Below are positions 28,901 to 49,000 of a DNA stretch of 64,000 nucleotides, one piece after another; the first letter of the stretch is position 1, and every line of letters begins with the position of its first letter. Both the position numbers and the translations under genes were made by a program. The stretch lies in the NCBI RefSeq assembly GCF_000002075.1, contig NW_004797313.1:443628-507627 (forward strand). The letters run 5' to 3'. Below the pieces are notes generated by a model. The model made no database searches and was not told where the DNA came from. It saw only the letters and a program-made list of their open reading frames with translations. The DNA is from Aplysia californica (Eukaryota).

Positions 28901-31900
28901 GGTAGAATCCCTCAAACTAATAATACAGCCAGGCTTCATGAAATAATCTCCCTGTTAAACAAGGTGTGCATTAAGATAAATTTCACACTGCATGTGTATT
29001 ATAAATATATATGTCATGTGGTGTGTTTTTATGAATGTGAGCATGCATGTGTCTGTGAATATGCGCATATATTTGTGTGTGTATTACTAGGGGAAGATTA
29101 TAACATACTATACTGGTAAAAGTAAAGCCTAACTGGCATAGTTTGTTGTAAAGTGTGCATCGATCAAGATCATGGGAATGCCAACAAATTGAGACAGTAT
29201 GTACATAAATTCAGACTGCAGTAGAACTAGGGGTGGGCATCAATTGCCACAGCCATATTTGAAAAAAATAATTTTCCACAATATTTATCTCAACAGAGGG
29301 AATATATCGCAGTGCAAACATGTTTAATGCAATTGCAAAAGATGCACTATTATTGTACTTTATACAGTTTAACTGATTCTAAATAAAAAGGCACAATTAA
29401 CTCTAAGATATATCTGTAGAAACTAAAGCTCAATATATCCAATGCTTTGGGAACAGTGAGAAAGAATTTCTTTCGCTTTACACCGTCATAATAAAAGCGT
29501 GCATTCAATATAAACTATAAGTAGGAGCCTTTATCGCATCGGGGGTGAGACATAAATGACATCTTGACTCATGTCATTATACTGGGTTATAGCTCAGCCG
29601 ACATGAGAACAGAATCTAAAAGACTGTTAATAAACAGTCCTGTCAAGTACATAAGTTCTTGAAAGCTAAACATATCTGTCAGTGATTATTGTTTTAACAA
29701 TCCTTGAAAGAAAACTTCAATTACAAATACTATGAGAAAAGCACTCATGTGAATGGTGAATGTAAAATGCGAACTTTACCTGGAAATCAGCATCTTTAGC
29801 CGCTGATTTTCTCTTTTCCTCAAGGCCCCTGAAGAGCTCCTCACCCACGAGAGGAACAATACCTTTGTTGCCAGGGCTACCAATGATACTGTAAGACTTT
29901 CCACTTCCAGTTTGTCCATAGGCAAACAAAGAGCAGTTGTAACCTTTCCATGCATTTTCCAAAACTCCTCGCCCCAAGTCATCAAACACCTTTTTCTGTA
30001 ACAGACATGTGACGAGACTATTAGCTTGCTAGCTCACTCTCTATAACACAAACAAAACACATAAAATGAAAAGTCACCTAAAGACTCACTGGGAGAAAGC
30101 AACAGAACAGAAACTGAAATAGATAAATTCCAGTAGCCTCAAGATGTCAAAAAGTTCTCCCAATTAATTGATTCCAAAATCAATTCAACAATTTGAACTT
30201 TTTAAAAAATAGGCTTAAACTCAACAAATGCATAGGCTAATGTTTTCTTGGTTTTTGTTTGTTTTTTTACAAAATGAACAAATCCCACTATCAAGTTGTC
30301 AAGTTTATATAACACTTCCATCCTACTGACTCCTAAAACACTGTTGGAAAAGCATTTTCTTCAATACCAGAGCTTCGAAAAGTATATCAGAAAGATAGAA
30401 GAATCGGAGCATTAAATTTTTTAATAATTCCCAAAATGATCCCTTTAAGAGCTTTGAAGTGCAACAACATAGATTTTTCAACAGTCATTGTCTTTGCATT
30501 CCTGACTTCAGTACAGTATATAGTGGGTGTCTCTTTTTTTTAAAGTTCAAGATAAGGAGATAATCGAATACAATACTTAAAAAGGAATTTTAAAGGAACC
30601 TGTTCACTGGAACATACAGGTAATATAGATGATTTTTAAAAAACCAAAAACGCAAGGGTGGCAAGCATTATTCCTTTCCATTCACATTTACAGTTACCTT
30701 TAAACACTAAACAGAGTTCAGTCTTTTTATCAACAGGGGGAATTTTGAATACTCTATCCAAAAAAAATCATACTTGAAGGTGCACATTGTTAGGCAAGTA
30801 TACAGCAATAAACTCCCTACGCTCATTAAAAGCATGTGAACTAAAAAAACAAGTGGAATGTTTTTGATGGTGTACAGGCACCATTTTTTATCGAATTCAA
30901 GTAGGCTACTCATTTAAGTGTTTAAGTTTGGTATTATTTGGGGGGGATAATAATACAATAAACACAAAATTTTCCAAAATCATTGATATTTGTTTTGTAA
31001 AATTGCTTACTTTGGCAAACTTCCTATCAAATAGAATGGTAAATTTGGTAAATTCGTAAAAGAAAAAGTTTGATTCAGTAAAGATTTCAATTTGTCCTGT
31101 TTGACATGGACAGAGGATAAAGAGGTACCCGTATTTCTGACATACTTAGCTTTAAAGAGTGGTTTGTATACTAAACTTTTAAAAACAATCTAAGCCATGA
31201 GAAATATAAATTATTCACAACAATGAAATGAAATCCATGCTTGGCTTACCTGGTCAGCATATTTACTGCTTGCGGGTTCATTATAACCATCAGCTCTCTC
31301 TTTGAACCCATCATGAGACCAGTAAGAGTAATCAAAGGCAAATTTTCTTGGTTCCGCTTTCATATTTTCTGGATCCTTGATTATGGTCTGGTTCCCAGAC
31401 ATCTCAATGATGAGCTTAGCATTGCGATTGATTTCCCTGGAGTTCTTGTATGGTTAAAGAAACTCTTTCGAAAAAATATTGCTTGAAAAAAAAAAATGTT
31501 GCCCAGGACACAAAGCAGCACAAACATTTCAATAATATAACTTCTCAAAAGGAAGGGCACATAACAAATCTCATAAGAAACAAAAAGAGAGAGAGAGAGG
31601 TCTCAAATGTGAACTGAAAATAAAGTCATTCCGTAATCTACAATTGCTTCATTTGATTACCTCTAAAAATGTTTGTCTCAAGGAATTGACAATTCTTAAG
31701 AAACACATGTCCAAATCGTCTTTCCAATAAATGACAATTCTAGATCATTGTAAGCATATCGCAGTCCTAATTTTGGTCAACACAATATAGAAATCTACAG
31801 TGGATCACCTTCAATTCCAACAACTAAACCCCGTCATTCAGTTCTTTTAATTCTAGTTATTATATCAGTTCAACTGATGTAATGCTAATGGAAATCAAAA

Positions 31901-32545
31901 TGTTCCTTTTCTTAAAAAAATACTGATGCTTCCAAGTTGCAGGTTTTAAAATACTATCAGCATTTTCTCTGCTGTGCAGCCATGTAATCATGCAACCATG
32001 GTTCCCACACTTGTGAGTCCTCCATCTGTTTTTATCAGCTGTGTTTTGTCGTTGTGTAGAGTATTTCCGATGTCTGGAGAGGCAGGTATGTAGGTACTAC
32101 GCAAGTCGCTTAGTGCAAGGCAGGTAAAGAAGTGATGTGATACTGTTTCATCCTGGCAGTCACACGACGAGCAGTCGGGTGGGGTATCCTTGAAGATCCT
32201 TTAGGTAGGAATTCAGTGGGATGTGCTGTGTTAGCAGGCGAAAGCAGTTTGTACATTACGGTGATCACATACTTCATTTAACTATTTCTCTTCCTATCTG
32301 CATTCACATTTGGACCATGTCTTTGTCCTTCTCCTATGATCAGCAGAGCTGAAAGTGTTAGATGAGTGATTAGTAAAAAAAAAAAAAAAAAAAAAGAAAC
32401 AATTAGCCAATTAGCTGTCAATAGACATCACAAATATTACACATCAAAACACTGGTTTGCTGCCCCATATCAAGTATCTTGGTCTTTCTGCTTAGATATT
32501 GTATCCCTCTCAGCCCGGGCAGGCCCAGACAAGCAGGGTCAGAAG

Positions 32546-32580
<35 letters not shown>

Positions 32581-33150
32581 GGCGCTGTGGCTTCATAAAC
32601 GGTCAGCGATGCCGACAGCACGCAGGAACTCAACACTTGCCCGGGGGTCCTTAAAAAGTGCTGAAAGTGGGTTACTGAAATGTCCCAGCAGACGGGTTCT
32701 AGCACGATAGCTGGCGCTGTCAGAAGCCCTATATCAGTTCATTACATTAACGTAAGTTATCATAAAGATATTGAGGATAATATTATCCATACATTGTTCA
32801 ACTTTTACACATCCTAAGTACAAAAAATCTCTATTGATAAAACAGGACTGAGATCTAGTTCAATGAATTTCTTTCTGTAGAAAAGCAAGTTTGAATTTGG
32901 CTGGCATAAACGAACTTGAAACTTCAAAACCAACCTAATGTTATTTCCTACTCCCGTGAAATTAATACACATGCTTCTCACAATATGCTTAGCCCCCTTT
33001 AAAAAAGCCATAATAGTTCTGGTAACACAAATAAACACAAAAACTATCATATGTATTTAATTTGTTTTTAAGAAAGTAAATTCAATTTGTTCAAGAATGT
33101 AAGGATACAAAAGGGCGAACCCTAACTGCCACTTTAACTGTTTCAGTCAT
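10859..33150 (-). CDS. KIF28: Kinesin-3 family motor, KIF28/KLP-6-like, 25 coding exons, about 960 aa (gene span)
   Basis: Exons join in consistent phase at GT-AG sites. Motor motifs [20 protein letters not shown] (P-loop), NMNATSSRAH (switch I), DLAGSER (switch II), [29 protein letters not shown] are followed by coiled coil, FHA region ([15 protein letters not shown]), [17 protein letters not shown] tail segments and CVLQ*. The end of exon 10 lies in gap 22623-23055. The KIF28 subfamily call is from recalled domain and sequence features. Confidence 0.88.
12477..12533 (-). CDS. KIF28: KIF28 exon 24 ([19 protein letters not shown])
   Basis: 57 nt, GTAAGT donor, phase 0/0. Confidence 0.75.
13012..13056 (-). 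CDS. KIF28: KIF28 exon 23 ([15 protein letters not shown])
   Basis: 45 nt; TTGCAG acceptor, GTGAG donor, phase 0/0. Confidence 0.7.
13394..13546 (-). CDS. KIF28: KIF28 exon 22 (LIEYL...IEVWGIQK)
   Basis: 153 nt, phase 0/0. Confidence 0.87.
14011..14133 (-). CDS. KIF28: KIF28 exon 21 (TYCNYKFY...GTINPDY)
   Basis: 123 nt, phase 0/0. Confidence 0.87.
14755..14942 (+). mobile_element. About 185-bp headless short retroposon (family X)
   Basis: Starts GGGTGGTTGGTGGGTGCTCTGGTG; tail CATATGACCTTAT..GTTGCAAGCACCGTAA; degenerate TSD TCTCTC(T/C)TA(G/A)A. Confidence 0.75.
15156..15224 (-). CDS. KIF28: KIF28 exon 20 ([23 protein letters not shown])
   Basis: 69 nt, phase 0/0. Confidence 0.85.
15604..15689 (-). 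CDS. KIF28: KIF28 exon 19 ([10 protein letters not shown]...DDPKEL)
   Basis: 86 nt, phase 1/0. Confidence 0.87.
16127..16262 (-). CDS. KIF28: KIF28 exon 18 (EKDPFWEP...)
   Basis: 136 nt, phase 0/1. Confidence 0.9.
17101..17238 (-). CDS. KIF28: KIF28 exon 17 ([13 protein letters not shown])
   Basis: 138 nt, phase 0/0. Confidence 0.9.
17518..17666 (-). CDS. KIF28: KIF28 exon 16 ([22 protein letters not shown])
   Basis: 149 nt, phase 1/0. Confidence 0.9.
18083..18246 (-). CDS. KIF28: KIF28 exon 15 ([11 protein letters not shown]...AQEEIA)
   Basis: 164 nt, phase 2/1. Confidence 0.9.
18899..19257 (+). mobile_element. Decayed copy of the same CORE-SINE family
   Basis: CACTTTACACAAAT...GGAATGGGTA...CAGGGATATG and an (ATT)n tail match the 6611-6957 element. 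Confidence 0.7.
19432..19560 (-). CDS. KIF28: KIF28 exon 14 (FHA; ILKDHA...VNG...LHHNDR)
   Basis: 129 nt, phase 2/2. Confidence 0.9.
20240..20303 (-). CDS. KIF28: KIF28 exon 13 (FHA; GTAKIGN...LMNGLS)
   Basis: 64 nt, phase 1/2. Confidence 0.88.
20843..20957 (-). CDS. KIF28: KIF28 exon 12 ([13 protein letters not shown])
   Basis: 115 nt, phase 0/1. Confidence 0.9.
21004..21185 (-). mobile_element. About 182-bp headless short retroposon (family X)
   Basis: Same 5' and 3' ends; 9-bp TSD ATAATGTCC (20995-21003, 21186-21194). Confidence 0.8.
21818..22260. mobile_element. Non-autonomous DNA transposon (MITE) with degenerate TIRs
   Basis: TGTTATGACGCAGTGGAATCAGGTGCTCATCAA is an inverted match to TTGACAAGCGTCTGATTTCACCACGCTGCCTTACA; internal GGTATCATTTGAAAG motif. 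Confidence 0.55.
22303..22418 (-). CDS. KIF28: KIF28 exon 11 ([12 protein letters not shown]...KSWEEKL)
   Basis: 116 nt, phase 1/0; coiled coil with the SWEEKL motif typical of kinesin-3. Confidence 0.88.
23056..23221 (-). CDS. KIF28: KIF28 exon 10, 3' end in assembly gap (ADRAKAIK...[10 protein letters not shown])
   Basis: Neck and neck coil; runs into the N gap. Confidence 0.88.
23798..24132 (+). mobile_element. 5'-truncated LINE 3' end (CCHC zinc knuckle, I/Nimb-like) with (AAC)n tail
   Basis: Open frame [26 protein letters not shown] to stop; perfect 14-bp TSD AGAAAATGATGGAA (23784-23797, 24133-24146). Confidence 0.88.
24184..24244 (-). CDS. KIF28: KIF28 exon 9 ([20 protein letters not shown])
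   Basis: 61 nt, phase 0/1. Confidence 0.92.
24749..24819 (-). CDS. KIF28: KIF28 exon 8 ([24 protein letters not shown])
   Basis: 71 nt, phase 1/0. Confidence 0.92.
25231..25364 (-). CDS. KIF28: KIF28 exon 7 (ERADSTG...INKSLSTLG)
   Basis: 134 nt, phase 2/1. Confidence 0.92.
25923..26030 (-). CDS. KIF28: KIF28 exon 6 (RAHTIV...IVDLAGS)
   Basis: 108 nt, phase 2/2. Confidence 0.92.
26470..27180 (-). mobile_element. RTE-clade LINE 3' fragment, frameshifted
   Basis: [20 protein letters not shown] and [27 protein letters not shown] are RTE-type post-RT motifs. Confidence 0.85.
27749..27860 (-). CDS. KIF28: KIF28 exon 5 ([14 protein letters not shown])
   Basis: 112 nt, phase 1/2. Confidence 0.9.
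28583..28697 (-). CDS. KIF28: KIF28 exon 4 ([17 protein letters not shown])
   Basis: 115 nt, phase 0/1. Confidence 0.9.
29780..29995 (-). CDS. KIF28: KIF28 exon 3 (P-loop GQTGSGKS)
   Basis: 216 nt, AG..GT; within ORF 29717-29989. Confidence 0.93.
31250..31444 (-). CDS. KIF28: KIF28 exon 2 ([10 protein letters not shown]...[10 protein letters not shown]...YADQ)
   Basis: 195 nt, phase 0/0, AG..GTAAG. Confidence 0.9.
31445..33108 (-). other. U12-type (minor spliceosome) GT-AG intron of KIF28
   Basis: 5' site GTATCCTTAC (33108-33099); branch-like TTTCTTTAAC (31462-31453) just upstream of the AG; no polypyrimidine tract; splicing gives VRPF|NSRE. Confidence 0.85.
31965..32345 (-). mobile_element. 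Decayed LINE 3' fragment related to the 23798 element
   Basis: Minus-strand translation with a frameshift: [14 protein letters not shown] / [23 protein letters not shown]. Confidence 0.7.
33109..33150 (-). CDS. KIF28: KIF28 coding exon 1 ([14 protein letters not shown])
   Basis: ATG at 33150; donor GTATCCTT (U12-type). Confidence 0.9.
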
Positions 33151-34139
33151 TTTGGCAATTGAAGCAGGAATCACACAATATCAACAACTGTCAGTTCTGA
33201 AATGAAATAAAAAACCAGAGTGAGTTTCTGAAGTTGATGAATATAAAAGCACAAAAGCAGATTTGAATAACAATCATATAAGAAGGATGATAATATTTTA
33301 AGCAAAAACATTTACATTTGTCATTCGATCCATTTGGTAGTCTATCAATAGTAAAAAGTTTAAAAGAACTTGAATAGGCCTACTACCGTAAAAATTGAAG
33401 GTTTGTGAAGCTTAAAAAATCTATGAAAAACTTTTATTTCTGTCCGACAGCTTTTGAATTTGTCACAGTGTGTTGAAAATCTTACAGTACACTACAAAAT
33501 AACCAGTGGCAAAATAGGTTTTCAATATTCATTTATGCTTTTTCGTGTGTTTATGAAGAAATGCGTAGGAAATCACTCTAAGTTATTGTCTAGGATTTTG
33601 TAGGCACAATATTTTACATCTGAACCACTATATTGTCGAAAATATATTGCAAATGATCAAAATTTTCATAGCATTCGTGACCCTCATAAGGTTCCCAATA
33701 AGTGATTATTGTCATAATGGATGTGCATGACTTGTATCACATCTATAGATCTTTAGTCTAAATGGTAGCTGGAGAAATATTGACAGGTTCATTGAATGCT
33801 TTTGTGTGGGGGTTTTTCAATTTTTTTTCACCAAAACTTCCTCACTATCAACGCCTCACTTGAAGTTGGAGTGTTTGAGTCTCAGATCTGAAGACAGGGA
33901 TTGTTTCCACAGGTCTGTTTAGATTTTATTAATTACTGAAGCTAAATGAGGAGTTTGCATGGTAAATTTGATTCATAATAAAATAGTGCACTTTTACAGA
34001 AAAGATCCGAACAACTTAACATTAAAATGTGCGCACTTCAAATTCAAGTCAAAATGATTTTCCAAAATCCATTGAACTCCACTGGAAAAAACAAATGGCA
34101 CCATAACACCACTGCCTCAGGAAGAGATCCCGCATTACC

Positions 34140-34560
34140 ATCAAATACAATATTCATAGGTCAACACACTCGCGTCTCTTGATTGGCCGTCAGTGATTGA
34201 ACAGACAGATGCTGAGATGAGCTGATCGTGGGGTATGTTCTACCTTGCAAAAAATTGATTAAAGGACAATGGCGGTGTATCTGCAATGATCTGCACAAAT
34301 TAATCAAACAGACCTCAGCACGCAAAAATGACATCAGAGTGAAAATTTGCACTGACGTCATATGCTGTTGGAAATAGGTGGTGCCAGTATTTCGAAATAG
34401 CCTAGGCCTAGAGCTTTACAGCTTATTCCGTGGGGAGGTTTCGTTTACACACTATCGATTCTTCCTTGACAACTTCCGTAAATAAAAGAGAGACAACTCG
34501 CAGCAACAGCGATTTCCGGCGTGAATTATGCCAAGTAGAGATAACCAGGGTTTTTTTCCG
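34140..34560. promoter_or_regulatory. Putative bidirectional promoter between KIF28 and the TEX12-like gene
   Basis: Locally CpG-richer. ATTGG/CCAAT box at about 34182, TGACGTCA (CRE) at 34353-34360, ETS-like ACTTCCG and TTTCCGG at about 34472 and 34513. A KIF28 5'UTR acceptor (TTTCAG, minus, about 33197) implies an upstream non-coding exon, with a candidate donor at about 34138. Confidence 0.45.
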
Positions 34561-35504
34561 AACGTACAAAAAAGTTATTTTGAATTATTCCCCCTGATGC
34601 AAAACAACGATAGCCAGCAGACGCCGTCGATGATCGACAGAAGAAACCAAAACCTTTGACTTTGCTGTCTATACCAGTAGAATTTGGGAGAAAAATATTA
34701 TGGTAATGTTTGTATTAATATTAGATCTAGTACAAAAATGTACTAGTTTTTTTTTATCCCAAATATTGAAGGGGCAAGAGACAGACCGCTCTTTTTTTTC
34801 CACCAATAGGCGCAAATTTTTCAGTGGATGCCACCCCTACATGATGCCGTACTGATACGATACATGTACAATTCATCACAACCTCGTCCTATTATTTACT
34901 GGCGTACATATGGGTATATGTATATCTACGTGTAGTACGTAGCAGGTAGCATCTAGTCTATAATCGTACTAAAAGATCTAGTTTTCTTCCCAGCACCTTA
35001 TATCCTGCCATCAGTAGATCTACTAAGGGTTCCTGCCATGTAAAAAAAGGCCCTAACACCAACACTCAACAATGTGCACCCTGTCTTAACGTAGACCCGT
35101 GTGAGTGTGATAAGTAGATATATAGATCTAGATATTGAAGTCAACTGAAAACAAAAACCAAATTCAACAGTGAACACTTAAAATTACGTTTTGTCTTATA
35201 ATATAATGCTTGCATCAACCTTTGCTCATGGAAGCACGGTACACTGAAAGAGTACAGAGGTTGCGTGTACCACCAAGTCAGAAAAATGCATACCTCTAAT
35301 GTACTGCTGTACATATATGTGCGCGCTGAGGCTATTCTCAGGGCTTGTAGTTGTACCATAGCTTGAAAAGTGCTGATAAGATATATATTATACCATTTTC
35401 AAGAAGTTAAGTGCATAATTTGAAAAAAGGCACAAGAATACTTTTACTGTCTTCCAAATCATTAGGTTAGTACATCTTGGAAGCAGAGATTTTTTTCTTT
35501 TATA

Positions 35505-35860
35505 GTGGAGGGTTTTACGGCGCTCGCAACTGCATTAGGTCATATGAGCGCCAAGGGGTGAGTGTCAACAGAGAAGTCTTTACAGGGAATCAGACTTATT
35601 CTACTCACCTCTCTAGCTTCAACAGCACAAGGTCTGCTTCGACTATCAAGGCACCCCGGAAATAGCAGGTCACAAGAGAGTGACAAACATACAAAAGAAG
35701 TAAGGGAAAAATGACAAAAGTAAGGATTAGGAAAGAAAAAGCAGCAGTTCCCTGTTGTAGATCAGTTATGAGCGTGACATGAATCAACCCATTTATAATT
35801 CTACTGTGCTTGAATGAGAAATGTCCCACCTTTGGGAATGGCCTACCCCGGGGGGCGCAG
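35505..35860 (-). mobile_element. Longer relative of family X sharing the same 3' tail
   Basis: GTTTTACGGCGCTCGCAACTGCATTAGGTCATATGAGCGC tail plus a CACAAGAGAGTGACAAACAT...AAAAGAAG segment. Confidence 0.6.
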
Positions 35861-36991
35861 CAGAGATTGTAGAGTTCAAGTTCAACAGTCCCGAAGAATT
35901 TTGTTTAACTTTTTATTGTTGTTTTTTAATTCCTGTGTGTAGTAGTAGTAGGNNNNNNNNNNNNNNNNNNNNNNNNNNNNNNNNNNNNNNNNNNNNNNNN
36001 NNNNNNNNNNNNNNNNNNNNNNNNNNNNNNNNNNNNNNNNNNNNNNNNNNNNNNNNNNNNNNNNNNNNNNNNNNNNNNNNNNNNNNNNNNNNNNNNNNNN
36101 NNNNNNNNNNNNNNNNNNNNNNNNNNNNNNNNNGGGTACAGTGATGAATTTTTCAATCCACGAACATGACCATGAATTCTTTCTCAACAGAGATCAATCA
36201 AGTTTCATTCATTCATTCATTTATATTACATATATCTGAAGCAACTTGCCCAAAAAAAACTCTTGTGATACCTTTAGTCATCAAAATACTATTTATAAAT
36301 TTAGAAGATTAATTTCTCTACTGGGTTTGCCGTAGGATAAGGAAGTGACGAACTAACATGCAATTAGAACCTGCGCTTGCACACAGTACATGACATATCC
36401 AATGAGATCAAGTCAAGCAATCGAAGAGTCTTGAAAGATCTCCAAACAACCCGAGTGTAAGAATGCCCCTAGAGGATTCAAACCACTGCCATTCGCACCA
36501 AAATCCAGCTATACCACCATCTAAACTAACAAGGAGTGCCCACATGATGTGCCTGTCCCCATTCCATGAAATGAAATTTTCAAATATGCTTTGACTTACG
36601 ATTTTTAAAAGTACAGTCGACTCCGCTGGTGTTGGAACTCGCTTGAGTTGCATCTTCTGTAAAGCTGATCTTTTTCTCAGGTACCAGCACCTCTTCTTCT
36701 TTGCAGGTCTCAATGGTTTAGTTGAACTTCAGATCAGTCTATCTTTTTTTCACTCCCCCGACAACATCAACTCATTCGTAGTCGCCTGTGACACTAAGCC
36801 ACTAAGCTGTTCATATCAAAGAAATCAATCAATATTGAGAAGGGGTGCAGTAATGAACTAGATCTAGCAGCCACTTTTTCATCCCCTTTTTTAAAGCATA
36901 CAGTCCATGCTGAGGTAAAATATCTAGGTAAAACAACAGCAGATAGACACAATCAACTTAGAACTCTATTGTTCTTTCATTTCAGGCCCGA

Positions 36992-37534
36992 ATGGAAACC
37001 GCTAAGTATTGCGACTTTGTGGACAGTACCGGTGTCCTGGCTGAAGCCTGGGAGCCACATTCAACAGCTAAGAAGCAAAGACTAGACAGCACAACAAAAC
37101 AGTTAGACATCTCCCTATCCAACCAGGAAGACAAAATACATGATCCTCATGATCTCGAAAGAGGCAATGTATGTATCAGCAGCAACAGATCAACAGAACT
37201 CATTGATCCCTATTGTGAAGCAGTAGAGCAAACACCAAACCAGTACAATTATAACGAAAGTGACCCAGCTCCTGCTAACATGAATGAGGGCACCAGTGCC
37301 TGCATGAGAAACTTTTCAGAATTACTGCGTGAACTGGGACAGGAATCAAGAATGGTGATACTTCAATACTCTCAGACATTTGGAGACAGTGAGGACTATG
37401 AACAGCAAGCTTCTCAAGCACTGTCTGACCTCGATGCACATGCAAAAATTTTGGACCAGATGTTACAGTGTCAAAAAGATAGCCTTTGCGGTCACCTGAA
37501 CTCTATATCAGAGGCACTGAGAAGAGAATTGTAA
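36992..37534 (+). CDS. TEX12: TEX12-like synaptonemal-complex central-element protein (180 aa; possibly extended by M-A-R if the ATG at 34700-34702 splices to 36986)
   Basis: Longest gap-free ORF in the window, with a TTTCATTTCAG acceptor at 36985 and AATAAA overlapping the stop. The C-terminal 71 aa (FSELLRELGQESRMVILQY...LNSISEALRR) align without gaps to human TEX12 as recalled (LEKDLNDVSKEINLMLSTY...FTVIANTLHR). Confidence 0.65.
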   Translation: METAKYCDFVDSTGVLAEAWEPHSTAKKQRLDSTTKQLDISLSNQEDKIHDPHDLERGNVCISSNRSTELIDPYCEAVEQTPNQYNYNESDPAPANMNEGTSACMRNFSELLRELGQESRMVILQYSQTFGDSEDYEQQASQALSDLDAHAKILDQMLQCQKDSLCGHLNSISEALRREL

Positions 37535-37808
37535 TAAAAGGACCACAGTGAAAGATGGCCAGAGTTGTAGATTTAGATAATTTGAGTTATTTGTTTCAAG
37601 GACTAAGTTTCATAAATTTTTATTAAACCAGTTCTTCCCCAGTAATGCCTACTTTACACTCCCTGCTTTTACAAGTTACCAACATTGAAACATATTATAA
37701 TGCATACTGATGTTCCATGGGCACATACTACTCAACTGAGAAAAGGTTTCAGTTACAGGCGAGGGATATTTTCTGCTTATAGAATCTACAAAAATTAACA
37801 ATTTGATA

Positions 37809-37994
37809 CAGTGTAGCCTCTCTATAACGATATCGGCGGGACTAGAAAAAAAATTCGTTTTAGAGATTTGTCGTTATAGAGAGGCAACCAAAAATATTAC
37901 TAATGATATATAAGGGAAAAATCAGGACCTGAGCACCATGTCGCTATACAGAGGATGTCGTTATATCGCAGATCGTTATAGAGGGGCTGCACTG
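37809..37994. mobile_element. Tc1/mariner (pogo/Tigger-like) MITE
   Basis: TA|CAGTGTAGCCTCTCTATAACGAT...ATCGTTATAGAGGGGCTGCACTG|TA. Confidence 0.88.
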
Positions 37995-39915
37995 TACATC
38001 ATAATGTAACAAGAAAATGCCATTTACTTCAGTTCATTGTTTTGTATGTGTTACAAAAATCTCAGACCAAAATGATATGTATCCAAATAAAGTGAAGAAA
38101 AGGAGGCAGGGTTCACAAACATTCTGATTTTCTAGAATTTCAATCTGAAAAATTATATTGTGTAAAAGAAAAGGCAATTCTTTTACCTCTTCAAGAAAAT
38201 AAGACGCAGGCTCAGAAAATTTTAAGAAACTTATATGGTGTAGTACTCATACAGATGAAAGTAGAAGAGAAACATTTATCAACATTTTTTTAAACAATGT
38301 ATTTTAATGGCCGTTTCATTTCATTTTATCATATCACTCTCAATGGCAGTAAAACAAGAATTTTTCTCACCTTCCAAACTTGCAGTCAAAAAGTCAAATC
38401 TATCACTGATCACATGCAACAATCACACGAACTCCAAATATTTCAACAAGCTTTCAATTCTTCATTTCACTCTTTCATTTCATGCCACACTTAGTATAAG
38501 AAATAGCATCACATTCCTCCCGTTTTCATTTCTTTTAATTTCATATCATTTTGAAGGCTGTGAGTGTTGAAACAGCTCTTCACACCAGTTTGATAAGCCC
38601 AATCTCTTTTAAAAAAGACAGGAACAAATTCATAGGATTTTGGATGCGGCAGCATAACAGTACATTTGTTTGCAGCTGTCATTATGCTCTTTGTATCTAT
38701 AGCATGAATTCAAAGATCATTGTTTAAGAGCTGTATGCCAGGTTCATCTCTTGTATCACAATTTCATGAACCTATAAAAATACTGAAACCCCTAAAATTA
38801 ACATACTAGATCGACCCACATCTGGTCAACAAAAATTTCAAATTAACATTTCTACCTTTATTTTGTAATTATGATTAGATCTACAGACTTAAGAAAGATG
38901 TTGCTTCATAAAATTCAGAGTGAGACTTACTTGAAACAGAATTTCAACTGAGAGTAAAACAATTAAAGAACAAATCAACACAATTTATGTGCTTAACTCC
39001 CGAACATAGATCTACACTGGGAATTCAAGTCTACCTGATGCTGCATCGGTTTGTCCCTTCAAAAAAAATTTTTTAAATCCTAAAGTACAGCATTCCCACT
39101 TATGTCATCAACAATGTTTTACAAAAGTGACTAAAGTGAAAGCTGAAAAAAAAAATCCCTCCTCAAATACAGGGAACACATGAAGCTATTCCCTGGTTAC
39201 TTAAATAAAATCAGCCAAAAGCGGTACGGTTCACTCCCTGCATTTCGGCCTACAAATGTACAGCAGATCGCAATTATAGGCATTGAGCATATATCAAATG
39301 CCTTGAAAATCAAAAATTCTTTGTGTTGTCTTTGTGCATAATCTAATTCAAAGGTCAAAGATGAAAAAAACATGCACTTGAAACATTGCAATCTTCTTGA
39401 CTTCTTGCCTAGACAGTAATTTTGCTCAGAATAAAAAGAGGTAGAAACACATGATCCATGTTTGATCACATTGTCCTAAATATTTATCCACTCTTCAACA
39501 CGAGACCATAATAGGACTTCTGCAAATAAAAACAGTCAAACACAGTTGCATCATCAAAAAAAGCCATTCACACAAAAGTGTACATCCACCCATAACTTTA
39601 TAATTTTATAAATACAAATCTCGCCCTTTGTTTTATCACAAAAACGGTTCTGTGACAAACATACTCGATGCATCAAGAGTACCATGACAACATAGGGTCA
39701 AAATGAATACTTCAAGATTATTACCTATGTTGGGATATAGGCCATCCGACTTCATGAGACAAACAAAAAAGGGCCAATTTATAAATGACACTGCATTTGA
39801 AGAGAAGTATATTTTCACACTTCTGGAGATCTCTGTGGAACTCCATATTTCTGAGGTCCAATTCGGAGTAAACTGGCACCTGTTTTCGACTCAAAACAAT
39901 TTTGAAAATGTGTAA

Positions 39916-40035
39916 CTATAACCACTGTTCTGAAGAACTGGCTGATATATCCAGGAGTTTCCAAGCAGCTGTCGGATCAAGTTCCTCCTGGTCCCGACAT
40001 AAGGCCCACACATACATGATGCGCAATATCTTGTC
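39916..40035 (-). CDS. TIMM44: TIMM44 last exon (DKILRIMYVWALCRD...EQWL*)
   Basis: 120 nt, TAG stop. Confidence 0.93.
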   Translation of the reverse strand, partial: DKILRIMYVWALCRDQEELDPTAAWKLLDISASSSEQWL

Positions 40036-43000: not shown

Positions 43001-46000
43001 ATATGAATTTTTTTCCAGTCGGCAGACGTTATGATTTTCACTCAATAATGGCAGGTTTTTGGGCTTTAGGGCCCTGTTATTGAGTGTTGTGAGAGGTTTT
43101 AGTAAACAATTTTCATTTGGCCTCATAGAGCTTGCATTGAGCTTTAATTTGATGTATGATTTAGCCCTGTAGCTTAATTTTTGAACTTGTTGTGATACTT
43201 TTTGCCCGAGGATGTACCGATGTACCAGAGTTCCCCTAATTTTTTTCCAAGGGGCATTTTTTGCCCCGAAGCCCACTTCAGAGGAGCCCAGAAAAGTTAC
43301 TTATCGTCAGAGAGGTCTGAAAAAAATTCAGCTAAGTCTATGCATATATTTGTAATGATTGTGTGCTTTTCACTAATGGGGAGGCAGTTTTGACTAATTT
43401 GGAAGAGGTTGAAATAATGGCCTATTTTGACATTTTTTTTCAATTTTTGAAGGCCTATATCTTGGAAACCAGTCATTCTAACATGCTTTGATTTAGAGAT
43501 ATCAATATTTGTGTTGACATCTCTGGGAAAAACAAAGTTTTCATTAATTTGACCATGCACTTTGTATTTTACAACACCTCAAACATGGGTGACAGTCGCA
43601 GTTGAAAAGGTTTCGTTCAAAAATAAAACTTTGAAATACCATATCTCGATTGTTTATTGATGGATTTTGATAATTCTTTTTTTTAATGTTCTTGTTTTAT
43701 TAAGTAGATTTGAACACCTAAGGTTTAAACATCAATATTGTTCAAAAACAATTTCGCTTGTGGTACCTACTTTCAGTTGTACACTGTGACATAATCATTC
43801 AACTCCCCTTAAAATTAGCAGGAGCTAGAGTCACATTCCCGGCCACAGCTGTAACAAGAACAAGAACAATGACAAAGTACTCAAATTATAATATGGTACT
43901 CACAGGATCCCCTTCCACCACACTACCCTTTGCATCTCGGACAACCAGTATCTGCTGTGCATTAAAACTGATGACTAAGACTGGGCCTTGCTCCATAATT
44001 TTGCCAGCAACTACCTGTTGAAATAAAAGGAAAAGAAAATAATCATACTTCACACTATGGTTATTCACAAAAGTCATTACGTTTGTTGTTACACATGAAT
44101 TTTCATACTTTGTGTGCCCTAACCAACTTAGCTTTTCACTTTATGGGCCCAGGTGCACGCCTGAGACTGTGCAACCTTTACTCCATCTGCACATTCAACG
44201 CATACCTCATAAATTTATGTTGACCAAAGGGAACTTAGTTCCTTGAATTCTGTAAGCTCAGGAGACCATGAGCAAAACACATGAGAGTGCTCTTTGAACA
44301 TTGTTGATTAATAAAAACGTAATATATTGAAAAATTTGACAGGGTAAGAAGAAAAAGAGGAACTGAAATAGGTTTAAGACGCGAGTCGGATTTTCTCCTT
44401 CAACACTTTTGAAATTTATTTAAAAACCAACTGACATAACAATACGAAATGACAAAAGCTAAACAGAAACTTTCGACGTTAAGTTTCTGGTTTCTGCAAA
44501 GGAGACTAACTACTCCCATAGGTGACTACAGAGAGCTAGGAATATTTTACCGAGAAAATGAACAAAATAACAAAATAATGTTACACAGAGACCAAACTGT
44601 CTCTCCATACTCACGTCAACTTGTGTAATATCTAAAACCTTGGAATCAAAAACATAGCCAGCCTTCTTTGCTTGTTCTATGGGATGGGCTAGAGTATTGT
44701 AAGGCTGAAACAAAACAAAAAGAAACTAATGAGTACAACAAGGACAAACAGAGAATCAGGGGCCCAACAAACATCACGTGTGAACATATGTATAGAGTCA
44801 TCCACACTACCCATCATAGTCAGACTTGAGGAAATCCTTTCAATTAACCTTGCTCGATATTTTAATTCATAACTTTTCAACAAGATTTATTTTTCAAGCA
44901 CAAAGTCTGGATTATGACCCCCTGAACGCAAAAACGGACACTAAAAAAGCTCACTTGTGCTGTTGAGACATACTTCAAGTAACATGTACCAGGAACTGAA
45001 GTACAATTGCAAAACTTTATAAAAAAACTTACAGCATTTCAAAAACAAAGACTATTAAGAAAAAAATAAGCCCATGGGGGCTCTCCTGACCTAGAGGTTA
45101 AGGTGTTGGCCTCTCATTCAAAGGTCCCGGGTTCGAATCCGGGTAGCGACCGAAAAATTTTCTTCTCTAAAATTGTCTCCTTTCACCTCCTTTCCTGCTC
45201 TCTAGCAATGTTCTGTTGTCTGCTTTCATTTCCACTTTCTGCCCCCACCCCTTCACCTCCTTTGCCCCCTCCTCTGGGATCCTGACTCTTTCTGCAGCCA
45301 TTCTACTGCTACTCCTTGGCTCCTCCTTACTGCTGTCTTTCTGCCACACCCCTGATCTTCTGGTAGGAAAGATCTACACCTAGCCTTCTCGGACAAGGGC
45401 GAAAAATCTCGGAGAGCCCGTGTGCAAGTTGCACACGTTAAAGATCCCTTGGTGGTCTAAAATCAATAAGAGTAGGCTTCGGCCGCCACCCGGGCAAAAT
45501 TCAAAATTTCCTACCAACTGAAAATATTAGGTGTGTCCCGCGCGCTCATATGACCTTATGCAGTTGCGAGCGCCGTAAAACACTTTACAAAAACAAAACT
45601 ATGAGCCCATGATTAAAATTACAATACAAATATAAAATCAGCAAATGCATAAGCTTCTCTGCCACACATTTTCATTTATGACTATGTCCTAGATCAGTAA
45701 CCGATGTGCAACAACGGAGGCAGGATCTAAGTGGCTGCCCCAATCATATGCCTCACCTTCTTTTTCAGTGGGAGCAGGGAATGTTTTAGCATTAATTTTA
45801 GTAAAAGTTTTACAGCATTTGCAACACAAGTAAGTCATTTATGTGCTGAAGATTAGAAGTTTTACTAGAAAATAACATACAACTTGAACAGAAGAAGGAA
45901 AGATAAGGACAATAGCTATTGGACAGGAAAGAACAACAGAAAATGTGAGAGTGACCACTTCAAGAATATGACTGGCCATTACTGAAAAGCTCATTGTTCT

Positions 46001-49000
46001 CGTAAGTCAGTGGGAACTGCTCTATTCACCCATTGTGATGCTACAAAAGATCATGAGGTAAAAAACTATGAAAGTGCTGTAAAAACAGTAACCATTCTAT
46101 AGCCTAAAATCTATGGATGAGCGATAAACTTTAAAAGATCAATCTTCCCTTTCTAAAATCACACATGAAAGAGTGATATCTCTTTGTCACTGTATATCTA
46201 GCATTCCTCATTTATTTTTGTTTTGTTTTACCCATGCATGTCTTTTACAAATGCTAAAAAAAACCATGAAGTTATAAAAAAAACATCACTAATGATGTTG
46301 GTGGCTCCCTCCCTTTCAATGGAAAAAAAAATAGGTATTCTAGTTTTTAGTTTTAGTAAGAGTTTTACGGCACTTGCAACACAATAAGGTCATATAAGTG
46401 CCTAAGATTAGAGGTGTTACAAGAGAGTAACAAACATAAAAAAGAAGGAGGGGAGATAAAGATAATAGATGTTTGATAGGAAAGAAGAAGCAAACCACAC
46501 CAGAGCACCTGTCAACCACCCACAAATAGGTATTCAATTGTCCAGGATGATGAAGGATAAATAACAGAAAAAAATACTCACAGCTTCAAAGCACCAGTCC
46601 TTTAGAACATCCAGATCACCTCTGATCATTGCCTGTTCAAGATAAAGAAAAAAGCTCTTCACATAATAGATTAATTACTTTAGTACAACAGAGAAAAAAA
46701 TAAACCCTGCTAATCTGCTGAGGTAACTATTCTCTGATCTGACTGACAAATAAGAGCCATATCCTCTTCAAACCATTAAAATATCTCCTCAACCATACAG
46801 TGGAATCATGTTATAACGAGAGGGAGGGGACCGGTGCGAAATGTCCGTTATAGCAGGATTCTCGTGATAAGGGATCCAGTAATAAATTCAAGATAAATAG
46901 TAAAATAGGCCTAATCTATGAGTTATGTGTTCTGTTTATTCCTTTTTGTATTTTCCCTGATGATGATTTTGTTCAACATGATCTCTAGGTCTTACTTGAT
47001 CAAAAATCGAATCAGGTTTCTTTCTTTAGCACAAGCAATGTTGACAGTTCGGCGTTGGTGATCAAAAAGAAGGGGCTCTGGCTCTAGGCTAACTCGCCCG
47101 CTGTGTCATCCCCCACCCCACCACACCCCCTAGTGTGTTGCGTCTGCTTGCGCACGTCACACATTCACTCCATCTATCAAAGCATTGTGACCGCTCAATC
47201 CCGCACCAATGAAGTGAGAGGCATGGTAGGCTAGGCCTAGATAATCTAGACTGGGCTGGCTTATCACGCGATGCGTTCTGTTTGTCTGCGCATGCCACAC
47301 CCTCCCCACTCATTCGCTCCGACCTTCATTGTTGGTTCGCGTGGGCTCCCCCATTCTTTGTTTCGCTGGATCACTAAGAAGTTTCTCAACTGGCGAGGTT
47401 TTATATTATGTTTAATAGGTCTGTGCGCTGTGCACAGCAGCAGCAATATTCCGTTATAACCGACTCGCGTGACTGTCTGATTGCACAATAGCAGTATTTT
47501 ATTTACAAAACTAAAGAAGGGAAAAAACGGCATTTTAGAATAGTGTCTTTATAAAAGATTTATTGTTATTTCAGGACTCATTATAAGTGGACTCCACTGT
47601 ATGAGATTAAGATAACCATTTCAAACTGTATCTGATAATATTCAAAAACTCTTTATGAGCACGAGAAACAACAGACACATATTTCACAATAGGATAATCA
47701 ACAAAAAAACTCAATTAAACTAGAACTGCAGAGTATTTTTAAAGATAAAACAAAGCTTGTTTAATGCATGATATTACTGAATTTACTTTAGTCTATTTAC
47801 CTCAAGAACGTTGGGGATGATTTCTCTCTCACATAGTCTCAAAAATTTCTCTCGGTCAAAATTGGGATCAATTTTGCAAATTTCTGTCAAGACTTCAGAC
47901 ATTTCTGTTTTTGAGAACATGCCACCTGTATGGATGAAAAAGAAAAGTATGGTACCAGAGGAAATCAGTAACATTACAATGAAGTAACAGATGTAACACT
48001 ACTTCATCATCCTGTGCTACATGCACACAATTTCATTCACTGAAGTCTCAGACTTGCAGAAACCCAATATGCCAGTTAATTTTTTTTAAATGAAAGCAAA
48101 CAGATTTGACAACTATACATATAAACATGAAATCCTAAGGGAAATCCTGAGCAAATTAAAATGCAGTCCAAGTGCTACAGAGAGTCGCTTGCTTATCTTG
48201 CAGATCCTTTCCTTTTGATTCTGCAACCAGTATTTTCCAGCTGCAAATTCAAGGAAGCTCCAGCACAAGAACTGAAGTATCAAAACAAAAGTTTCTGGCA
48301 ATGTACAATCTTTCCACAGCTATTTGAATAAATAAACCAAGAGCAATTTTACCTTTAACTGACAAAATCTAATTGCAGACTTCATTGATAAACAGCAAAA
48401 CTACATGGTATGAGGGGAAAAAATATAGATTCATACATACAAATGAATAGCCCATAATAAACAGACTCGTTAAAATATAGCTGCACCGTACCATGCTCCG
48501 ACCTGACTTTTACTCAAACTCCCAGAGCTAAAAACAGACTAAGCTACAAGATGTTCACTAAAATAAAATTATGCATATATGTAAATGGAAAAAGAGCCAG
48601 CAGCTATCATCGTAATGCAATTCTCTCGCAACTTTGTAATTCCTGTTTTGAGATACACTATAGATTATCTATACAGTCCGTGCCGGCTTTAAGCACGCTG
48701 GCATAAAGCATGTTTTGGACTCAAGCACGTTAAACGGATCTTACCGAAATTTTGCTGTATAAATTACACGCCTTTAAGCATGGTAACTTCGGCTTCAGGC
48801 ACGCTTCATTTACAAGACAGTCAACACTTTCTTGATGACCCATCGAAGTTCGAACACAGTCTACACCACAGCAGTGAGTGTGTTAAGAGAAACACAAAGA
48901 ACGCAAGTGATGGAGACACACGCGTGCAGAATGCACATAGGATCTAGCCTAGGGCAAAGCTACACACAGATGAAAAATACAAAGAGAGTCATGGAGACGA

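What the first reader, a model, noticed from the sequence alone, without database searches (positions are those of the whole stretch)
36986..37538. Divergent invertebrate TEX12-like gene with a long N-terminal extension in a single coding exon
Seen: 180-aa ORF with an acidic, probably disordered N-terminal 100 aa containing KKQRL and a helical C-terminus. Against human TEX12 as recalled, the last 71 residues align ungapped with identities at L5, E11, Y19, L40, A44, L51, L58, I65, L69 and R71, plus conservative matches between. Known: TEX12-SYCE2 forms the synaptonemal-complex central element, and SC proteins evolve fast and are often missed in invertebrate annotation. The near-intronless layout suggests intron loss or retroposition (inference).
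Basis: partly seen in the sequence, partly recalled or inferred. Interest (0 to 1): 0.7.

Follow-up and report, generated by a model that had tools for sequence, protein, structure and literature searches.

The report
Intron-stripped gastropod TEX12 meiosis gene
This is a real, spliced, unnamed gastropod gene related to the human chromosome-pairing protein TEX12 and likely its counterpart; it lacks the coding introns that other molluscs keep, likely because an RNA copy overwrote or replaced the old gene.

Summary
The ORF is real and transcribed, and the TEX12 call holds, but only through a profile. The protein itself misses Pfam TEX12. A profile of 40 invertebrate homologues, built without any TEX12 seed, hits human TEX12 at E=1.6e-8, with the next non-TEX12 hit at 0.23. 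The ESM Atlas also returns TEX12. The four Ctip heptad residues are kept; the three FFV fibre residues are not. (1) It is not one coding exon: the likely start ATG ends an upstream exon (34700-34702), giving 183 aa. (2) The long N-terminus is usual among these homologues (median about 100 aa). Intron loss is supported. Two core introns seen in other molluscs are absent here and apparently in Elysia. The same clade sits on a long branch and lacks an N-terminal FxxPxTP motif (0 of 16 against 15 of 24). Retrogene versus in-place loss is unresolved. SYCE2 binding and gonad expression were not tested. Invertebrate TEX12 is already known, so this is a useful annotation with a modest evolutionary twist.

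The parts
34613..34702 (+). Exon 1: 5' UTR ending in the likely start codon ATG (34700-34702); it also holds a 9-codon out-of-frame uORF from 34630
   Evidence: Contig X5 covers 34613-34701 and joins to exon 2; the joint is also in X7; translation. The 5' limit is the end of one contig, not a mapped start.
34703..36985 (+). Phase-0 GT..AG intron (2283 bases) directly after the ATG; holds repeats
   Evidence: Joint 34701/36985, GT..AG with cut +1, in X5 and X7; ends printed
36986..37534 (+). Coding part of exon 2: codons 2-183 and the stop; second in-frame ATG at 36992 (start of the 180-aa form used for numbering)
   Evidence: covered by contigs of X5, X7 and X4, X6, X10
36992..37312 (+). Predicted disordered N-terminal region, residues 1-107, with basic cluster KKQR; lacks the FxxPxTP motif of other molluscs
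   Evidence: pLDDT about 50 and no secondary structure; motif counts
37313..37531 (+). TEX12 helical core, residues 108-180 (human 53-123 plus two residues); Ctip heptad L165, L169, I172, L176
   Evidence: Profile hit to 6hk9_A, E=1.6e-8; helix 108-179; column counts
37535..37897 (+). 3' UTR as far as contigs reach; AATAAA at 37533, ATTAAA at 37622
   Evidence: Contigs X7 and X6 end at 37897; signals; cleavage site not mapped
34250..35000 (.). CpG-rich stretch around exon 1, likely a promoter region shared with the head-to-head kinesin gene
   Evidence: CpG o/e 1.01-1.02 in the two 500-base windows here, against 0.21-0.78 in the other 20 windows of 33000-38750; kinesin ATG at 33150 on the minus strand; sharing is inferred

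Best explanation
The gene encodes a protein homologous to human TEX12, likely the single TEX12 orthologue of this heterobranch gastropod, and predicted to pair with SYCE2 and build the central element of the synaptonemal complex. Shown: the gene is spliced and transcribed; its last 70 residues align without gaps to the human TEX12 core through a profile; the four Ctip heptad residues are kept. Inferred from human and Nematostella work: the core helix would form a 2:2 coiled-coil with SYCE2, and the Ctip heptad would clamp these into 4:4 units and end-to-end fibres along the midline of paired chromosomes in meiotic prophase; the N-terminal 100 residues would be a flexible tail not needed for SYCE2 binding. 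Gene history, inferred: an ancestor of heterobranchs lost the internal coding introns, most likely through a reverse-transcribed copy of the mRNA, either by gene conversion in place or as a retrocopy that replaced its parent (about even odds). The protein diverged fast and lost an N-terminal FxxPxTP motif on the same branch.
For: Profile of 40 homologues hits human TEX12 chains 6hk9_A (E=1.6e-8) and 6hk8_A (4.7e-5); the best of the other 12 hits is 0.23. 10 of 30 second-round homologues have PF15219 hits at E 1e-4 to 0.047, all ending at model position 84-85, and no other family recurs. Atlas: first hit 0.95 with 224 of 256 features shared, to a cluster with 24% TEX12, and 8 of the 10 best family-bearing hits agree (similar for the Elysia homologue). 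A core profile of those 10 proteins scores the window core at 65.9 bits against a maximum of 10.1 among 494 scored of 500 shuffles (partly circular, since they were found from this protein). LFIL-equivalent columns are hydrophobic in 40, 40, 40 and 39 of 40 rows. One match only in the genome, with its own core and with an abalone homologue. SYCP3-family exons are present in the genome. Introns: L002 has four predicted introns between five exons plus an acceptor before the first, two of them at window E114 (phase 1) and G131 (phase 2). Read-through ORFs of Pomacea and oyster break at E114 and one oyster-type fragment at G131. An Elysia crispata ORF on a 614-kb contig runs unbroken over residues 5-181 of the annotated protein. 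Core tree: 16 rows including this one on a branch of about 1 change per site, support 98/99.
Against: No direct PF15219 hit for this protein, for 0 of 10 closest homologues, or in the genome scan. None of the 10 weak hits reaches the 27-bit cut-off. 7 of the 10 close homologues hit UPF0242 instead (best E 2.6e-4). The 10-sequence profile found nothing in PDB, Foldseek found nothing, and the Atlas structure search listed no TEX12. The FFV residues needed for human fibre assembly are M157, S164, S171 here, and the R78 hinge residue is S133. Expression is not shown to be gonadal: contigs from several studies carry the transcript, tissues are not given, and two poly(A) runs have only traces (mean depth 0.28 and 0.94 in one bin, 0 in the other, no junction read). 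SYCE2 was not located. Intron evidence rests on one unnamed contig and on naive ORF fragments, not on annotated gene models.
Confidence: 0.8

Rival explanations
1. True TEX12 descendant whose main job is outside the synaptonemal complex, for example a SYCE2-free homodimer at centrosomes, while its fibre role is reduced.
For: Human TEX12 also forms SYCE2-independent dimers and goes to centrosomes (PMC9452514 passages; PMC8654964 listing). FFV and hinge residues are not kept. The clade is on a long branch. The transcript is in contigs of at least five studies.
Against: FFV columns are poorly kept across all 40 invertebrate rows (5, 24 and 15 of 40 hydrophobic), so their loss is not special to this gene. 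It is the only copy found. Nematostella TEX12 binds SYCE2 in yeast two-hybrid (PMC13693662 passage).
Confidence: 0.1
2. An unrelated short coiled-coil protein that resembles TEX12 by heptad pattern alone.
For: 13% identity to the human core; no direct Pfam, PDB or Foldseek hit; UPF0242 hits in 7 of 10 close homologues.
Against: Human TEX12 is separated from all other PDB coiled-coils by seven orders of magnitude. The match is ungapped and ends at the C-terminus in both proteins. The Atlas and the weak Pfam hits agree.
Confidence: 0.05
3. A decaying processed pseudogene of a multi-exon TEX12 lying elsewhere in the genome.
For: It lacks ancestral introns; low read depth in two runs.
Against: The frame is open and spliced transcripts exist. 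No second locus was found. Close homologues with intact cores exist in Elysia, Plakobranchus and Candidula. Two of three variants seen in the coding region are synonymous.
Confidence: 0.03

Closest known systems
Human TEX12 (PDB 6HK9, 6HK8, 6R17; Pfam PF15219; PMC7612376, Results section read; PMC3411106 and PMC9452514, passages read)
   Same: Unstructured N-terminus plus a C-terminal helical core of about 70 residues in the same ungapped register; Ctip heptad L110/F114/I117/L121 matches L165/L169/I172/L176.
   Different: 183 against 123 residues; 9 of 69 core identities; FFV (F102/F109/V116) reads M/S/S; hinge R78 reads S; below the Pfam cut-off.
Cnidarian TEX12 (Hydra, Fraune et al. 2013, not held and not read; Nematostella, PMC13693662, passages and supplement legends read)
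   Same: Invertebrate TEX12 in a vertebrate-type synaptonemal complex; Nematostella TEX12 binds SYCE2 in yeast two-hybrid.
   Different: A Pocillopora coral homologue found here has an intron in the N-terminal region.
Unnamed TEX12-family proteins of other molluscs (Littorina, Babylonia, Pomacea, Haliotis, Patella, oysters, Argopecten)
   Same: Long disordered N-terminus with a basic cluster, same core; databases call them uncharacterized or misname them.
   Different: They carry a basic cluster followed by GFxxPxTP, and those that could be checked have core introns; the heterobranch clade lacks both.

Membership tests
TEX12 | Sequence homology of the C-terminal core to human TEX12 49-123 | tested here: met
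   Profile A3 hits 6hk9_A at E=1.6e-8, ungapped over 69 positions; next non-TEX12 hit 0.23; Atlas agrees
TEX12 | Score above the Pfam PF15219 gathering cut-off (a database threshold, not a biological feature) | tested here: not met
   No hit for the protein or its 10 closest homologues; 10 of 30 farther homologues hit below the cut-off, best 22.9 of 27 bits
TEX12 | Unstructured N-terminus and helical C-terminal core | tested here: met
   Predicted only: helix 108-179, N-terminus pLDDT about 50
TEX12 | Ctip heptad (L110, F114, I117, L121) needed for 4:4 assembly | tested here: met
   L165, L169, I172, L176; hydrophobic in 39-40 of 40 rows
TEX12 | Surface FFV residues needed for human fibre assembly (human mechanism; not family-wide) | tested here: not met
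   M157, S164, S171; hydrophobic in only 5, 24 and 15 of 40 invertebrate rows. Lowers the claim that it bundles fibres as the human protein does.
TEX12 | Binds SYCE2 | not tested
   No SYCE2 query sequence or family accession came from any call, so the partner was not located
TEX12 | Meiosis-specific expression and central-element localisation | not testable with these tools
   Run tissues are coded or absent
Retrogene | Lacks the introns of the ancestral gene | tested here: met
   Introns at E114 and G131 in other molluscs, absent here; one intron remains after the ATG
Retrogene | Intron-bearing parent copy elsewhere in the genome | tested here: not met
   One match only with two queries; the search scores few candidates, exon by exon
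Retrogene | Sits at a new locus compared with intron-bearing orthologues | not testable with these tools
   No other animal genome is searchable; L002 is 4.3 kb and shows no neighbour
Retrogene | Poly(A) remnant or target-site duplication | tested here: inconclusive
   Only one 8-base A run at 37846 within 870 bases after the stop; such marks would be erased in an old event

The most novel reading that the evidence does not exclude
In the ancestor of heterobranch gastropods a retrocopy of TEX12 landed beside a kinesin promoter, replaced the multi-exon parent gene, evolved fast and shed an N-terminal basic-GFxxPxTP motif. Other molluscs keep that motif as a PP4 phosphatase docking site beside a CDK-type site. 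A core synaptonemal-complex gene would then have been swapped for a retrogene and have lost a phospho-regulatory input in the lineage of hermaphroditic slugs and snails.
Probability: 0.25. Interest if true: 0.55.

Novelty: new member of a known kind. Interest (0 to 1): 0.33.

Why it matters
It names a gene that the databases leave unnamed or misname across molluscs (oyster 'HEAT repeat-containing protein 1 homolog', Elysia 'BAG domain-containing protein') and that Pfam misses, giving a meiosis marker for gastropods and bivalves. The 40-sequence family shows which TEX12 features are old (the Ctip heptad) and which are not (FFV, hinge). This bears on whether the human fibre-bundling mechanism is general. 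The lineage-wide intron loss and the lost FxxPxTP motif are small, testable leads. It does not change the known picture that TEX12 is pan-metazoan.

Tried and rejected
Direct Pfam, PDB and Foldseek searches of the protein gave nothing useful; a single long helix is a poor fold query, so VIA-align was not run. The PF15219 scan of the genome found 0 of 3 candidates. The 10-sequence profile found nothing in PDB. No complex was predicted: no SYCE2 sequence was at hand, and PMC9452514 (passage) reports that AlphaFold2-multimer misses the native TEX12 dimer. The second read lay at 88% likeness was swamped by repeats and its joint table was cut, so the kinesin 5' exon is not mapped. Fraune et al. 2013 is not held; it is cited through PMC4132317 and PMC13693662. 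The Nematostella supplement alignments are pictures and could bear on which molluscs were already listed. Literature searches: tex12+mollusc gave 1 paper, tex12+syce2+gastropod 0, one search gave 7 with none holding 'lophotrochozoa' among the 6 listed, intron loss+heterobranch gave 4 on other genes. One search was badly posed and none of its 40 listed papers held tex12. One search (tex12+PP4) listed 9 papers, seen as listings only. Human TEX12 exon boundaries were not found. Earlier findings of the scan: none relevant. Rejected: 'single coding exon', 'unusually long extension', pseudogene.

Full report
Observation. The ORF is at 36992-37534 on the plus strand, 180 codons, behind an AG acceptor at 36984-36985. 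Residue numbers below follow this 180-aa form. The nearest named homologues are heterobranch gastropods (Elysia, Plakobranchus, Candidula; 54-63% identity over the core), so the window is likely from that group.

Gene structure. Contigs of two runs from two studies (X5, X7; 2 of 4 runs laid) join 34702 to 36986 over a 2283-base GT..AG intron. Three more runs (X4, X6, X10; 3 of 4 laid) have contigs that begin on the window at 36985 with 97-115 further letters before it. The tool marks these runs as RNA by guess, but a spliced joint is what RNA gives. Exon 1 ends in ATG, in frame, and the spliced product equals the 183-aa database protein P0002. So the gene likely has two coding exons, the first giving only the start codon; which ATG is used is inferred from context. 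Two poly(A) raw-read runs show only traces and no junction read. Tissues are not given, so gonad specificity is untested.

Is it TEX12? Directly, no tool says so. Pfam gives no PF15219 hit for the protein, for its 10 closest homologues (where 7 of 10 hit UPF0242 weakly) or in the genome. PDB and Foldseek searches are blank. Indirectly the case is strong. The 10-sequence profile found 37 proteins, 30 of them new. Ten of the 30 have weak PF15219 hits in one register, none over the cut-off, and no other family recurs. The profile of all 40, with no vertebrate or named TEX12 seed, hits human TEX12 at 1.6e-8 and 4.7e-5; the next hit is 0.23. The Atlas returns TEX12 clusters first for this protein (0.95) and for an Elysia homologue (0.94); its structure search does not. 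Named members of the family include Littorina, Haliotis, Patella, oysters, a scallop, Limulus and Pocillopora, the spread expected of a pan-metazoan gene. Only one locus matches in the genome, and SYCP3-family exons are present.

Anatomy against the human mechanism. The chain is the F102A F109E V116A mutant (PMC9452514, passage), which fixes the numbering: window = human + 55. Nine of 69 positions are identical, read by hand. In human SYCE2-TEX12, L110, F114, I117 and L121 clamp 2:2 units into 4:4 units, and F102, F109 and V116 drive higher-order fibres (PMC7612376, Results read). The first set is kept here (L165, L169, I172, L176; hydrophobic in 40, 40, 40, 39 of 40 rows). The second is not (M157, S164, S171; 5, 24, 15 of 40). 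The model is one helix from 108 to 179 with a low-confidence tail. The human tail is unstructured and dispensable for SYCE2 binding (PMC3411106, passages). I infer SYCE2 pairing and end-to-end assembly as in human, with lateral bundling by other residues. No step of this was tested here.

The extension. Among the 40 aligned proteins the region before the core has a median of 101.5 residues; 33 have 80 or more and 17 have 108 or more (some entries may be partial). The tail is long against human (48 residues) but ordinary among these homologues. Many carry a basic cluster followed by GFxxPxTP (alignment). The pattern F..P.[TS]P is in 15 of 24 rows on one side of the core tree and 0 of 16 on the side that holds this protein. 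FxxP is a PP4 docking motif (PMC9278955, passage); reading TP as a CDK-type site is recalled knowledge. That role is a guess from the pattern.

Intron loss. One metagenome contig (L002; 1 of 46 pattern matches confirmed) holds a homologue, likely molluscan, in five predicted exons, with another acceptor before the first. Two introns fall in the core, in the codons matching E114 (phase 1) and G131 (phase 2). Naive ORFs in the Pomacea and oyster clusters run into intron-like sequence at E114, an oyster-type fragment begins at G131, and coral fragments break in the tail. An Elysia crispata ORF on a 614-kb contig runs unbroken over residues 5-181 of the annotated protein and lacks its first residues, which would fit the same ATG-then-intron layout. 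So the internal introns were likely lost once in a heterobranch ancestor. That clade sits on a branch of about 1 change per site, support 98/99, from only 76 columns and midpoint rooting; 7 of its 16 rows were not among the nine closest sequences, and several rows are unnamed. Loss of several adjacent introns with the first one kept fits recombination with a cDNA (established knowledge, recalled). A retrocopy that replaced its parent fits too: the gene lies head-to-head with a kinesin (ATG at 33150, minus strand) across a CpG-rich stretch, and tail-to-tail with TIMM44. No parent was found. Only synteny can decide.

What is known. TEX12 and SYCE2 were reported as conserved in Metazoa by Fraune et al. 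2013 (not read; cited in PMC4132317, passages). Nematostella TEX12 binds SYCE2 (PMC13693662, passages). My searches found no paper on gastropod TEX12, its intron loss or the motif, but the library lacks Fraune 2013, which may already list mollusc sequences.

Verdict. A real, likely functional TEX12 orthologue: a new member of a known kind. Interest 0.33. The most novel reading, retrogene replacement with loss of a phosphatase docking motif, has probability about 0.25.

Noticed in passing
window about 23100-33150, minus strand: Multi-exon kinesin gene, head-to-head with the TEX12-like gene; motor motifs at 33138, 31342, 29917, 28676, 25309, 24775. Subfamily not tested; its 5' UTR exon was not mapped.
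   Followed up: partly
window 39919-40035, minus strand, 3' UTR down to about 37940-38310: Last coding exon of TIMM44 (PDB 2cw9_A, E=1.2e-15); its 3' end nearly meets that of the TEX12-like gene.
   Followed up: partly
P0020, P0024, P0028, P0033, P0045 and others; L002 1433-1480: Conserved basic cluster plus GFxxPxTPDIP motif in the tail of non-heterobranch mollusc TEX12 proteins; candidate PP4 docking site. In L002 and Pomacea an intron separates the basic cluster from the motif.
   Followed up: partly
Database names of P0045 and P0004: The oyster member is named 'HEAT repeat-containing protein 1 homolog' and the Elysia marginata member 'BAG domain-containing protein'; both look like misnamed TEX12.
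   Followed up: no
Atlas rows: A 110-aa cluster of 100 members, mostly land plants, has 26% Pfam TEX12 and scores 0.90-0.91; possibly a plant central-element protein related to TEX12.
   Followed up: no
window 35500-35770 and about 44800-47500: High-copy repeats with very deep RNA coverage and A-rich loose ends, SINE-like; one lies in the intron of the TEX12-like gene.
   Followed up: no
G000:C496:311917-313460: Three exons matching Cor1/SYCP3 (PF04803), two over the cut-off.
   Followed up: no
P0016 and P0052: Two Batillaria attramentaria entries (156 and 148 aa) match the family, one holding the core and one the N-terminal motif; possibly one gene split in annotation.
   Followed up: no
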